A stretch of DNA of 49,673 nucleotides, taken from positions 1 through 49,673 of the IMG/VR virus record IMGVR_UViG_2778261214_000022. One strand, 5' to 3'. This stretch comes from a virus. Its lineage: Duplodnaviria > Heunggongvirae > Uroviricota > Caudoviricetes. A program made the translations under genes and the position numbers. The notes under the pieces were generated by a model. It did not search any database. It saw only the letters and a program-made list of their open reading frames with translations, and had not been told where the DNA came from. Shown piece by piece: positions 415-41,434 of the stretch (position 1 is the stretch's first letter; the number at the start of each line of letters is the position of its first letter).

Positions 415-576
415 ACATTTCAGCTGATGACCACCACGCTTTTTATTGACCATTTTGCACGCAAACTGGAAAACCTGGCGTCGTCATCTATTCTTAAAGG
501 GCAAGGCAACTAAGCCTGCATTAATGCCAACTTTTAGCGCACGGCTCTCTCCCAAGAGCCATTTCCCTGGACCGAA

Positions 577-602
577 TACAGGAATCGTATTCGGTCTTTT
601 TT
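577..602. repeat. attL core (direct repeat with 48581-48607)
   Basis: acaggaatcgtAttcggtct+T-run here versus acaggaatcgtGttcggtctc+T-run at the right end; core also forms hairpin ccgaatac/gtattcgg. Confidence 0.7.
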
Positions 603-637
603 TAATTGTATTTAAAATCAATCAGTTGCAAACGTCT

Positions 638-13711: not shown

Positions 13712-14074
13712 ATGGCGACTTTGACCAAAGAAGAACGGTTTACCAAAGAGCAGTTAATAGCCCACGCAGAGGAGGCTATTGAATCACAGAGACTGTGCAT
13801 ACCAGGCACAATCGACCATGACCTCATTCGCGCATATAAGATGGATATTGCTGTTCTGGAAATTGCACTGCAATCGCTGGCAGCAGCGCCAGTTGGTAAA
13901 TTTTATGAATACAAACCAGTGGGGTATCAGTGTCTGGTCGACGAGTTAACTATGCAGGTAAAGCAGTTAGCCTGGCAACTGAGGAAAGCGAAGCCGGACT
14001 GCAAACTGCCGGATAAGGCGATGGACTACCTGGAGCGAAACGGACTGACAAGCGTGGAGGATGTTTTACGATGA
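13712..14074 (+). CDS. Hypothetical protein
   Basis: 120 aa ORF starting right after previous stop. Confidence 0.6.
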
Positions 14075-14154
14075 CCTGGCCTGAAGCATTCACAACGGCA
14101 GGAATTGCGATGGCGGTGGCGCTGGTGGTGTATTCGATTTTCTGCTGGGGATAA
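14071..14154 (+). CDS. Small hydrophobic peptide
   Basis: 27 aa ([27 protein letters not shown]) by hand translation; ATGA overlap; GGAGG 10 nt upstream. Confidence 0.35.
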
Positions 14155-14156
14155 CA

Positions 14157-14187
14157 AAAGCCAGCCCATTAGGGCTGGTTTTTTAAA
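14157..14187. terminator. Bidirectional intrinsic terminator
   Basis: aaaag-ccagccc-atta-gggctgg-tttttt between convergent genes. Confidence 0.7.
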
Positions 14188-14470
14188 GAGGTAGCTTCAT
14201 GATGGCTGCCAGTGCGCCAACAGCAACGACGAGCATCCCGCCAAATCTGACAGTCAGTTGCAGGGTGAGTTTATCAATTTTTGCATCAATGGCAGCAATG
14301 TCATTTTTTAGTTCAGTTTTAACATCGTTCAGGTCGCGCTTTGTAGCGACTTCTGCCGCTTCGTGAGAATCCTTTACTGCAGCAGATATGGCGCGAGCTT
14401 GTGCTGCAGGCATTCCGGCGGCTTCTAGGGTTTCAACGAATTTCAGAGTATCAAAATAGACCTGAGCCAT
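14183..14470 (-). CDS. Coiled-coil protein with C-terminal membrane anchor (DUF1640-like)
   Basis: 95 aa; predicted helical N-region and hydrophobic C-terminus (FGGMLVVAVGALAAIMKL); reverse-oriented inside a forward operon. Confidence 0.6.
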   Translation of the reverse strand: MAQVYFDTLKFVETLEAAGMPAAQARAISAAVKDSHEAAEVATKRDLNDVKTELKNDIAAIDAKIDKLTLQLTVRFGGMLVVAVGALAAIMKLPL

Positions 14471-14671
14471 GGTATTAAGTCCTTCGTTGTTGGGGAATGT
14501 TGTTATTTTAGCTTGTTATGTCTGTTGACGACAACAGACATCCGGGGCTATAGCACTATAAAACCGTTTAGGAGTAGCATGGCTGGGGTGTTGTCAGCAA
14601 TGAGCAATTGGTGGTGTGATGCGGTTGTGATGATAAGAAGAACAATACCCCCCCGTGGGATTGTGGAGGGA

Positions 14672-14842
14672 TTATTTATTGGGTGTATTGATGTCTTGAA
14701 GAGTGACTTTTATTTCTTCACCTGAATCTGCATTTTTGAGGACATATACAATGTCGTCATTAAGAATGTGCACTACGAGCCATTCTCCATCTTTTTCACG
14801 TAAGTGAACGATACTGCCTGTTGATATGCCATGAACGGTCAT
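14672..14842 (-). CDS. Small beta-rich protein (DUF2158/YodC-like guess)
   Basis: 56 aa ORF by hand translation (MTVHGISTGSIVHLREKDGEWLVVHILNDDIVYVLKNADSGEEIKVTLQDINTPNK); weak RBS. Confidence 0.4.
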   Translation of the reverse strand: MTVHGISTGSIVHLREKDGEWLVVHILNDDIVYVLKNADSGEEIKVTLQDINTPNK

Positions 14843-14959
14843 TTCTGCGTCTCTCGTGTTGTAGGTATAAGGTTAGTATAGCCAAGAATGCATGAAAGGC
14901 ATAGCAGGCTATAAAGTAGCAAAAGGTGATGTTAATCGTCCTGATCGTCATCTGTTTAA

Positions 14960-15156
14960 CCGTCATAGTGACGACACTGGTAACGAGGAAAGACCTCTGT
15001 GAGGTACAAATCCGAATCGGTCAGACGGAGGTCGCTGTCTTTACAGCTTACGAACCTGAGGAGTAAGAGACCTGGCGGGAGAGAAATCTCCCGCCTCCTC
15101 TGATGTGTCAGGCATCTTCAACGCCCCCGTACTTAACCCGCTTCGACGGGTTTTTT
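14960..15156 (+). ncRNA. Candidate structured small RNA or leader
   Basis: No convincing ORF; perfect 9 bp hairpin ggcgggaga-GAAA-tctcccgcc (15074-15095) then intrinsic terminator. Confidence 0.25.
15137..15156 (+). terminator. Intrinsic terminator
   Basis: cccg-cttcga-cggg followed by TTTTTT. Confidence 0.6.
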
Positions 15157-15319
15157 GTTACGATTATTTTTAATCAAACAGGCTTTTTGTGTTTTTGTGA
15201 TTTGTTGTTCTTGAGGCTAATTACGGGGGAAATAGAATCTCATTACTTGATTGGCGCGCAGGGAGAAGAGGGATGGCCCCCAAACAGGGGAAAGTTATTT
15301 ATCCAGAAGGATTCTGCTG

Positions 15320-15493
15320 ATGAAAATCGAAGAATTGCGTGAAATTTTTAGTGAAAATGGCCTCTATGCTGTGCGCGTTGAGAATGGGGAAGTTATCTAC
15401 GCAACGTTAATTCCTGATGATCATGTAATTTTATCTATCGAGGCATTCATTGAATACCTGGAAAGGCTCGGTTTCAAGGTAGTTTGGGAATGA
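15320..15493 (+). CDS. Hypothetical small protein
   Basis: 57 aa from Met24, AAGGA RBS. Confidence 0.45.
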   Translation: MKIEELREIFSENGLYAVRVENGEVIYATLIPDDHVILSIEAFIEYLERLGFKVVWE

Positions 15494-17700: not shown

Positions 17701-17776
<76 letters not shown>

Positions 17777-17779
17777 TAT

Positions 17780-17851
<72 letters not shown>

Positions 17852-41101: not shown

Positions 41102-41434
41102 GATGACCTCTGTTTGTTTTCTTCGAATTACCACTATCTGAGTGGTGCCAGGAGGTTCGAAACGGCACAAACAAAGCCGCGGACTTATTCCCCTTTCGGG
41201 TGTTGTATTCGTCGCCCTCCCGACATTGATCGGGGATGTGACCGCACATGGTGCCATCACTAAATAGTAGGCATAAAAAATCCAACACTGACGGGGTTGG
41301 TTGTGACCGTGTTTGTTGAGGTTTCGACGCCTCATGCACATAATCATACTCAATAGCTCATGGATGTAAAGTCTGATTTGAATAGAGAAAAACCGTTGAT
41401 AAAATCCGCATGAACATTTGATAATGAGGTGATT

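What the first reader, a model, noticed from the sequence alone, without database searches (positions are those of the whole stretch)
14157..15160. Reverse-oriented two-gene islet with adjacent structured RNA candidate inside the nin-like region
Two minus-strand genes (a 95 aa coiled-coil protein with C-terminal membrane anchor and a 56 aa small protein found only by hand translation) sit between plus-strand operons, ended by a bidirectional terminator. To their right ~300 nt lack a convincing ORF but contain a perfect 9 bp GAAA-capped hairpin (15074-15095) and an intrinsic terminator (15137-15156). This could be an sRNA or regulatory leader next to a small membrane-protein module.
Basis: seen in the sequence. 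Interest (0 to 1): 0.5.

Follow-up and report, generated by a model that had tools for sequence, protein, structure and literature searches.

The report
Sok-less Hok toxin remnant beside morons
The "structured RNA" is the tail end of a well-known phage-borne Hok toxin gene that has lost its promoter, its antidote RNA and its start codon, and it sits next to two small self-contained inserted genes of unknown function, so this is ordinary prophage mosaic rather than a new RNA.

Summary
The sequence features are real, but the region called ORF-less encodes a Hok/Gef type I toxin (14911-15066; Pfam PF01848, 75.8 bits). The GAAA-capped hairpin (15074-15095), the fbi box (15116-15128) and the terminator (15135-15158) are the conserved 3' UTR of hok mRNA, and the hairpin shows compensatory changes across hok loci. 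Ten related loci carry about 200 nt more upstream: the hok promoter, the tac element and the Sok antitoxin (Rfam RF01794, 98-121 bits). The window and six close relatives have none of this. They have also lost the hok SD, changed ATG to ATA and gained a TAG at codon 3. This is therefore a decayed, sok-less hok remnant, comparable to K-12 hokD. The 95-aa gene is a DUF1640/CCDC90-like tail-anchored coiled-coil protein with its own promoter and terminator, a typical moron. The 56-aa ORF is probably a real gene that RefSeq does not annotate (dN/dS 0.30, at least 7 intact variants). In every locus that extends far enough it sits head-to-head with hok. No separate sRNA is supported: the weak isrK hit is spurious. 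Interest is low. The only new item is the tiny hok-adjacent protein family.

The parts
14071..14154 (+). 27-aa single-TM small ORF (tm27), ATGA-coupled to the upstream 120-aa ORF. It marks the left flank of the islet.
   Evidence: Read from the sequence. Its aa sequence is 77-100% conserved in all 12 IMG/VR loci examined, and a homologous ORF is visible in L008. PGAP does not annotate it. KD 2.15.
14156..14183 (.). Bidirectional intrinsic terminator (AAAAGCCAGCCC-ATTA-GGGCTGGTTTTT). It ends both the plus-strand operon and the DUF1640 gene.
14183..14470 (-). 95-aa DUF1640/CCDC90-like protein: conserved N-terminal head, short coiled coil and C-terminal TM anchor.
   Evidence: 186 homologues across Enterobacterales and insect symbionts. 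All 12 aligned members hit PF07798; the window protein itself scores 30.7 bits, just under the gathering score of 33.5. PHROG 17872, E 2.8e-19.
14505..14534 (-). Sigma-70-like promoter of the DUF1640 gene (TTGTCG-18-TAAAAT).
   Evidence: It is conserved with the Yersinia homologue (TTGTAG...TAAACT).
14518..14541 (.). Perfect 10-bp palindrome ATGTCTGTTG/CAACAGACAT over the -35 box, a possible operator.
   Evidence: It is unique in the window and not conserved in Yersinia.
14647..14671 (-). C-tract/G-tract hairpin just after the stop of the 56-aa ORF, acting as its terminator. Its length is polymorphic.
14672..14842 (-). 56-aa acidic small protein gene, not annotated in RefSeq. It is divergent from hok.
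   Evidence: dN/dS 0.30 with an in-frame indel against L008. At least 7 distinct intact variants occur in 12 IMG/VR loci, always between tm27 and hok. Only 3 clusters exist in each of the two large protein libraries.
14875..14880 (-). Conserved -10 box (TATACT on the minus strand) of the 56-aa gene.
   Evidence: Alignment. Inference from conservation.
14891..14902 (.). Mosaic junction. About 200 nt present in relatives are missing here: the hok promoter, tac/ucb, the mok start, the Sok gene and the hok SD.
   Evidence: RF01794 is present in 10 of 10 relatives without the islet and in L002 and L004. It is absent from the window and 6 relatives.
14911..15066 (+). hokD-type toxin reading frame, decayed: ATG->ATA at 14911 and CAG->TAG at 14917. 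The residual ORF runs from ATG 14929 (45 aa).
15074..15095 (+). Stem-loop equivalent to the 3'-terminal protective hairpin of processed (Tr) hok mRNA.
   Evidence: Two pairs carry compensatory G:C<->A:U changes (9 cells) and 98% of cells are paired. The role of the stem in R1 comes from PMC9841398.
15116..15128 (+). fbi (fold-back inhibition) box remnant CTTCAACGCCCCC. It differs at 2 positions from the canonical CCTCAACGCACCC and has no tac partner.
   Evidence: No complementary sequence lies upstream of hok in the locus.
15135..15158 (+). hok intrinsic terminator. The closing C:G pair of the UUCG loop is broken (G->A) in this lineage.

Best explanation
The region is a mosaic joint in the nin-like region of a lambdoid E. 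coli prophage. It holds three independent pieces.

1. A vestigial hokD-type type I toxin locus. Only the 3' two-thirds survive: the Hok coding frame, the protective stem-loop, the fbi box and the terminator. The 5' third has been replaced or deleted. That third held the hok promoter, the tac/ucb elements, the mok start, the Sok antisense antitoxin gene and the hok SD. The canonical start is now ATA and codon 3 is TAG. An intact locus works as follows (established for R1 hok/sok). The full-length mRNA is locked closed by tac-fbi pairing. Slow 3' trimming back to the stem-loop opens it. Unstable Sok RNA then blocks mok/hok translation and triggers RNase III decay, so Hok kills cells only once Sok is lost. 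In this window none of that can operate, so the locus is most likely a silent pseudogene. Its hairpin and terminator act at most as generic 3'-end and terminator elements on read-through transcripts.

2. A DUF1640/CCDC90-like gene carrying its own sigma-70 promoter, a possible operator and a terminator. This is the layout of a classic moron, probably expressed in the lysogen as a tail-anchored inner-membrane coiled-coil protein.

3. A 56-aa cytoplasmic small-protein gene with its own -10 box and terminator. In relatives it sits head-to-head with an intact hok promoter.

Shown here: the identities, the boundaries, the loss of sok and the leader, the start and stop lesions, and the conservation. 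Inferred: silence of hok, expression of the two morons, and their cellular locations.
For: - Hok identity: Pfam at 75.8 bits. PHROG 251 aligns to profile positions 7-50 of 50, so the N-terminal 6 residues are missing.
- Homology to canonical loci begins only at about 14895-14903.
- Relatives carry 267 nt between the small-ORF ATG and the hok ATG. The window carries 68 nt.
- Rfam 'sok' RF01794 scores 98-121 bits in 12 canonical loci. It gives no hit in the window at E<=10 and none at the gathering threshold in L010-L015.
- ATA, TAG and the SD loss are shared by all 4 genomes aligned and appear in the translations.
- The hairpin covaries across hok loci. All 7 non-pairing cells fall in the sok-less lineage.
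- The fbi box has 2 substitutions or a deletion, and no tac complement exists.
- Literature: a sok-less chromosomal hok is lethal, and survivors carry promoter, start-codon, premature-stop or truncation lesions. The construct lacking both the hok and Sok promoters was recovered and served as the non-toxic control (PMC9841398).
- Precedent: K-12 hokD also lacks the leader and sok, with a breakpoint at the SD.
- DUF1640.
- Small ORF.
- The islet occurs in 9 of 5426 E. coli genomes and in no phage record.
Against: - Residues 7-51 of Hok remain an open frame in every lineage member, and PGAP calls it a 45-aa Hok/Gef protein.
- pN/pS against canonical alleles is 0.34-0.67, which is not clearly neutral. 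It rests on only 7-9 substitutions.
- The lineage is only 0-2% diverged, so an intact frame carries little weight either way.
- The hairpin is still perfect in the window itself.
- No expression data were available. N-antiterminated read-through from pR could still transcribe the frame during lytic growth.
Confidence: 0.8

Rival explanations
1. The shortened Hok (45-46 aa, starting at ATG 14929 or GTG 14926) is still a working toxin. It has no promoter or antitoxin of its own and is made only when N-antiterminated early transcripts read through the nin region, for example as a lysis-timing or abortive-infection aid.
For: The frame is open in all lineage members and PGAP annotates it. The TM segment and both Cys-region residues are retained. 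K-12 hokD shows that a leaderless hok driven by foreign upstream transcription can persist.
Against: The SD AAGGAG is deleted. The only SD-like bases (GGTGAT) overlap the ATG itself, which leaves no usable spacing. The basic N-terminus MKQQKA is lost. There are four lineage-specific amino-acid changes. The 3' UTR pairs are decaying only in this lineage. K-12 hokD, in contrast, keeps its SD and ATG.
Confidence: 0.12
2. The segment 15074-15158 is an independent small RNA (IsrK-like, Hfq-binding) or a 5' leader that regulates the downstream rem/Q genes.
For: There is a weak isrK (RF01394) hit at 25.2 bits, E 0.005. The segment folds stably, z = -3.4. It has a hairpin-plus-terminator architecture.
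Against: The score is half the gathering score of 50. The same weak hit appears on the canonical Rac hok 3' UTR and on K-12 hokD. True isrK members (68-70 bits) lie next to C4 antisense RNA and overlap c4-a1b1, which places them in a P1-type immI context. The window has no C4. No promoter-like site lies upstream of 15074 on the plus strand. The hairpin starts 8 nt after the hok stop and is collinear with hok in every relative. A separate promoter-like site at 15211-15238 lies between this segment and the downstream gene and probably serves it.
Confidence: 0.03
3. The DUF1640 membrane protein and the 56-aa protein form a two-gene functional module, for example a membrane toxin or exclusion protein with a small partner. 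This module functionally replaced hok/sok.
For: The two genes are adjacent and co-oriented. In all 13 copies examined (the window, 9 E. coli genomes and 3 IMG/VR contigs) the DUF1640 insertion co-occurs with loss of the hok leader.
Against: The two genes are separable. The small ORF occurs without DUF1640 in the 10 related loci examined for it. DUF1640 occurs without the small ORF next to KilA-N/AntA genes in Yersinia. Each gene has its own promoter and terminator. Neither hits PADLOC.
Confidence: 0.05

Closest known systems
hokD (relF) of the Qin cryptic prophage, E. coli K-12
   Same: It belongs to the same Hok subfamily, with about 90% nt identity over the coding region and 3' UTR. It has the same downstream neighbours (rem, then Q-type genes). 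It also lacks the hok leader and Sok, with no RF01794 hit, and its breakpoint lies within a few bases of the hok SD.
   Different: K-12 hokD keeps the AGGAG SD, the ATG and all 51 codons, and it is fused behind relBE. The window copy has lost the SD, the ATG (now ATA) and codon 3 (now TAG), and it is fused to a divergent small gene.
Intact prophage hok/mok/sok loci (phage Rac MN652886; hokW/mokW of 933W; loci L008, L016-L024)
   Same: Identical architecture from the hok start to the terminator. The tm27 and 56/57-aa neighbours are the same in L008 and L016-L024.
   Different: These loci carry the promoter (-10 TAGAAT), tac GGGTGCTTGAGG, the mok start and Sok (RF01794 at 98-121 bits). The window does not.
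hok/sok (parB) of plasmid R1
   Same: It provides the mechanistic template: tac-fbi closure, 3' trimming to a protective GC stem about 10 nt after the stop, and Sok/RNase III control (PMC9841398).
   Different: R1 Hok is a different subfamily. Here the template applies only to the ancestor of the window copy.
IsrK sRNA of Salmonella Gifsy-1 (RF01394)
   Same: A 5' hairpin followed by a terminator, lying upstream of antirepressor and Q-type genes in a prophage.
   Different: The score is 25 bits against a gathering score of 50. True members adjoin C4 antisense RNA. The IsrK paper never mentions hok. The window segment is not a member.
MCUR1/CCDC90B (PF07798, DUF1640) family
   Same: An N-terminal head motif, a coiled-coil stalk and a C-terminal TM anchor.
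   Different: The phage version is the minimal 95-aa form. Nothing is known about its function in bacteria or phages.

Membership tests
[quoted passage not shown] | Hok/Gef-family toxin reading frame | tested here: met
   PF01848 at 75.8 bits against a cut-off of 22. PHROG 251, E 1.2e-24.
[quoted passage not shown] | Intact hok start codon and SD | tested here: not met
   ATG->ATA, Q3->TAG and AAGGAG deleted.
[quoted passage not shown] | Sok antisense RNA gene and hok 5' leader (Rfam RF01794) | tested here: not met
   No hit at E<=10 in the window. Twelve canonical relatives score 98-121 bits.
[quoted passage not shown] | tac element complementary to fbi | tested here: not met
   The fbi remnant lies at 15116-15128. 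No complement with <=3 mismatches lies upstream of hok in the locus.
[quoted passage not shown] | Overlapping mok frame coupled to hok | tested here: not met
   The canonical mok start lies in the deleted segment. Only a fortuitous 36-codon ORF (14892-15002) lies in the mok frame, and it is cut short by a TGA.
[quoted passage not shown] | Conserved 3' UTR: protective stem-loop, fbi box and terminator | tested here: met
   Alignment and pair counts show 2 covarying pairs. The terminator was found.
IsrK sRNA (RF01394) | Covariance-model score at or above the gathering score (50 bits) | tested here: not met
   25.2 bits. True members score 68-70 bits.
IsrK sRNA (RF01394) | Own promoter and an adjacent orf45-antirepressor or C4 context | tested here: not met
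   No promoter-like site upstream. No C4 in the window.
DUF1640 / CCDC90-like (PF07798) | Pfam model match | tested here: inconclusive
   The window protein scores 30.7 bits against a gathering score of 33.5. All 12 aligned homologues match at E<=1e-3, and close homologues carry a precomputed PF07798 assignment and the NCBI name DUF1640.
DUF1640 / CCDC90-like (PF07798) | Head, coiled coil and C-terminal TM anchor architecture | tested here: met
   Alignment A5 shows a conserved head FDTLKFVETLE..AG, a stalk of variable length and the anchor GGMLVVAVG. KD 2.2 at residues 79-95.
Prophage moron | Own promoter and terminator, inserted between conserved neighbours, patchy distribution | tested here: met
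   Promoter and terminators. Absent from 10 syntenic relatives. Present in 9 of 5426 genomes. Expression in the lysogen was not tested.

The most novel reading that the evidence does not exclude
The 56/57-aa acidic, beta-rich protein has no Pfam match and is not annotated in the RefSeq records examined. It forms only three clusters at 50% identity among 1.84 billion proteins. It could be a dedicated partner of prophage hokD-type loci, because it is always encoded head-to-head with the hok promoter. It might act as a protein-level modulator of hok transcription or of Hok action. Its retention after hok decayed would then point to a second role.
Probability: 0.08. Interest if true: 0.45.

Novelty: already known. 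Interest (0 to 1): 0.15.

Why it matters
It matters little beyond annotation hygiene.
- A 'Hok/Gef family protein' call in RefSeq can hide a locus that has lost its antitoxin, promoter, SD and start codon. Censuses of type I toxins should therefore check for the sok/leader model.
- The case is a natural example of the inactivation route that FASTBAC-Seq experiments predict: the hok and Sok promoters are lost together, and start and nonsense lesions are present as well.
- Two small conserved ORFs are missing from the public annotations examined: 56 aa at 14672-14842 and 27 aa at 14071-14154.

Tried and rejected
- **IsrK homology.** The weak hits (25-33 bits) recur on every hok 3' UTR tested. 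A blastn search of the phage collection found no Salmonella record. A degenerate-pattern scan of genome contigs returned mostly chance hits, but it did yield three true isrK loci, all next to C4 RNA. Rejected.
- **Plus-strand 48-aa ORF at 14580-14725, which has a good AGGAG SD.** Homopolymer length differences in close relatives frameshift it. Rejected as coding.
- **AlphaFold model of the 56-aa protein.** Mean pLDDT was 57.6, with four strands and a short helix. That is too poor for a fold search, so none was run.
- **Homologues of the 56-aa protein in genome contigs.** None were confirmed.
- **PADLOC.** No hits for any of the proteins.
- **PDB sequence search for the DUF1640 protein.** Only one hit, at E 0.25.
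- **Other copies of the 14518-14541 palindrome in the window.** None were found, so no link to the prophage repressor could be made.
- **A tac-like complement to the fbi box.** None lies upstream of hok in the locus.
- **dN/dS on the hok remnant.** There are too few substitutions to decide.
- **Literature on DUF1640 in phages.** Nothing functional was found.

Full report
**Observation**

- The 95-aa minus ORF lies at 14183-14470 and the 56-aa minus ORF at 14672-14842.
- A 12-bp inverted repeat at 14156-14183, flanked by A- and T-runs, forms a bidirectional terminator.
- The perfect 9-bp GAAA-capped hairpin lies at 15074-15095.
- An intrinsic terminator lies at 15135-15152 followed by a T-run.

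The one factual error is the claim that the about 300 nt on the right hold no convincing ORF. ORF 14926/14929-15066 matches Pfam HOK_GEF at 75.8 bits against a cut-off of 22. It also matches PHROG 251 'MokW-like host killing'. RefSeq annotates it as 'Hok/Gef family protein' in E. coli C5, which is 100% identical over 14100-15350.

**What the 'RNA candidate' is**

From about 14903 to 15160 the window is about 92% identical to hokD-type loci of many lambdoid phages and prophages. In all of them the hairpin begins 8 nt after the hok stop. It is followed by CCTCAACGCACCC and then by a UUCG-capped terminator.

CCTCAACGCACCC is the complement of the 5' end of the canonical leader, GGGTGCTTGAGG, which is where the Rfam sok/leader model begins in relatives. 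This makes it the fbi box that pairs with tac.

On a 12-sequence alignment, two pairs of the hairpin carry compensatory G:C<->A:U changes (9 cells), and 98% of its cells pair. Slid controls pair at 39-58% across both helices.

In R1 hok, the GC stem about 10 nt after the stop is the 3' end of the processed, translatable mRNA. It protects that mRNA from 3' exonucleases, and mutations in it abolish toxicity (PMC9841398). They are not an sRNA or a leader.

**What is missing**

Homology to canonical loci starts only at about 14895-14903.
- In relatives with the same neighbours (L008, L016-L024), 267 nt separate the ATG of the divergent small ORF from the hok ATG.
- That interval holds a -10 box (TAGAAT), the tac element, the leader and the hok SD AAGGAG.
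- The window has only 68 nt there.

Rfam RF01794 ('sok antitoxin', which models this leader) gives a clean split.
- It scores 98-121 bits in all 12 canonical loci tested.
- It gives nothing in the window, even at E<=10.
- It gives no hit at the gathering threshold in six close relatives of the window.

In addition, the canonical ATG is ATA (14911) and codon 3 is TAG (14917) in all four genomes aligned. No tac-like complement of the fbi box lies upstream of hok in the locus.

Decay is visible elsewhere too.
- The fbi box has two substitutions, or a deletion in RM11911.
- The closing C:G pair of the terminator is broken.
- Two relatives have hairpin-breaking changes.
- All 7 non-pairing cells in the alignment belong to this lineage.
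- A hok-synonymous TGC->TGT change creates a TGA in the mok frame.

**Interpretation of the hok part**

Experiments on R1 hok show that removing Sok alone is lethal. Survivors carry promoter, start-codon, nonsense or truncation lesions. The construct lacking both promoters was recovered and served as the non-toxic control (PMC9841398).

The window shows that viable route. One event, either a deletion or a heterologous replacement, removed the hok promoter and sok together. SD loss and start and nonsense lesions are also present.

K-12 hokD is a direct precedent. It has no RF01794 hit, and its homology begins at AGGAGAAGCAGGCTATG, 71 nt after relE. From my own knowledge, not checked here, Pedersen and Gerdes (1999) described hokD as inactivated by rearrangement.

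I therefore read the window copy as a silent remnant (confidence about 0.8). The main reservation is that codons 7-51 remain open. With only 0-2% divergence in the lineage and 7-9 substitutions against canonical alleles, selection tests are uninformative.

**The two minus-strand genes**

*The 95-aa protein.* It belongs to the DUF1640/CCDC90-like family.
- It has 186 homologues in Enterobacterales and insect symbionts.
- All 12 aligned members hit PF07798, although the window protein itself falls 2.8 bits short of the gathering score.
- The family combines a conserved head, a stalk of variable length and a C-terminal anchor.
- The gene has a sigma-70-like promoter (TTGTCG-18-TAAAAT, 14534->14505), which is conserved upstream of the Yersinia homologue.
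- A window-specific 10-bp palindrome lies over the -35 box.
- The gene is absent from ten syntenic relatives and present in only 9 of 5426 complete E. coli genomes. No phage record carries it.

This is the anatomy of a moron. Its function is unknown.

*The 56-aa ORF.* PGAP does not annotate it, but it is very probably a gene.
- Against a 72%-identical copy it shows dN/dS 0.30 and an in-frame indel.
- At least seven distinct variants are all intact.
- A -10 box (TATACT) is conserved.
- Non-homologous terminator hairpins follow it in different lineages.
- In every locus that extends far enough, it lies between the 27-aa TM ORF and hok, head-to-head with hok.
- The family is tiny, with 3 clusters in each of the two large libraries, and it has no Pfam match.
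- The AlphaFold model is poor, pLDDT 58.

**Mosaic structure**

The small ORF of the window is only about 72% identical in nt to other copies, whereas the flanks are 88-95% identical. The segment 14159-14902 therefore looks imported as a block (terminator, DUF1640, variant small ORF). Its right-hand joint destroys the 5' end of hok.

**Rivals**

- *Functional shortened Hok (0.12).* It lacks an SD, and the only SD-like bases overlap the ATG.
- *Independent IsrK-like sRNA (0.03).* The 25-bit hit recurs on the Rac and K-12 hok 3' UTRs. Real isrK members score 68-70 bits and sit beside C4 antisense RNA. The window has neither C4 nor an upstream promoter.
- *DUF1640 plus the small protein as one module (0.05).* Each occurs without the other.

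**Verdict**

This is an ordinary, already-known element, a hok type I toxin locus in a decayed sok-less state, next to a DUF1640 moron. The only mildly new item is an unannotated, hok-adjacent small-protein family. Interest is 0.15.

Noticed in passing
window 14071-14154 (+): An unannotated 27-aa single-TM ORF ([27 protein letters not shown]). Its ATG overlaps the stop of the upstream 120-aa ORF (ATGA). Its aa sequence is 77-100% conserved in all 12 IMG/VR loci examined, and a homologous ORF is visible in L008.
   Followed up: partly
window 15320-15493 (+) and 15211-15238: The rem-like gene is only 57 aa, compared with 86-aa Rem in relatives, and PGAP marks it as a truncated pseudogene. A promoter-like site (TTGAGG-16-TAGAAT) and a CCCC/GGGG leader hairpin upstream are conserved with phage Rac.
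   Followed up: partly
window 14647-14671: A C7/G6 homopolymer hairpin, the terminator of the 56-aa gene, varies in tract length among four near-identical E. coli genomes.
   Followed up: partly
window 14518-14541: A perfect 10-bp palindrome ATGTCTGTTG-ACGA-CAACAGACAT covers the -35 box of the DUF1640 promoter. It is unique in the window and absent from the Yersinia homologue's promoter. It may be an operator for an unknown regulator.
   Followed up: partly
L103 5227-5431, L028 320-560, L061 6316-6543: True Rfam isrK members (68-70 bits) in Kluyvera, Erwinia and Aeromonas lie directly upstream of C4 antisense RNA. In L103 and L028 they overlap the c4-a1b1 target family. This suggests that isrK-orf45-anrP is a P1/P7 immI-type (c4-icd-ant) module.
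   Followed up: partly
L145 (E. coli K-12 NC_000913.3 1645119-1645345): K-12 hokD has no sok/leader model hit. Its homology to hok loci starts at the SD, 71 nt after relE. The breakpoint is nearly the same as in the window.
   Followed up: yes
window 463-607, 2169-2347, 41139-41224, 17701-17851: Rfam hits elsewhere in the window: host SraC/RyeA and SdsR/RyeB at the left edge (probable attachment-site flank), the RalA antitoxin sRNA, an sRNA-Xcc1 family hit on the minus strand, and two tRNAs upstream of the lysis genes.
   Followed up: no
window 15047-15055: The Hok Tyr codon lies in the context GCUUACGAA (a UACG motif). This is the context in which TadA A-to-I recoding (Tyr->Cys) is reported for hokC/D/E mRNAs in a 2026 bioRxiv survey. 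The motif is retained here although the gene looks dead.
   Followed up: no
L020 2085-2228: One relative pairs a canonical sok/leader (RF01794, 98 bits) with a Hok only 35% identical to HokD. The toxin appears to have been swapped behind a conserved leader.
   Followed up: no
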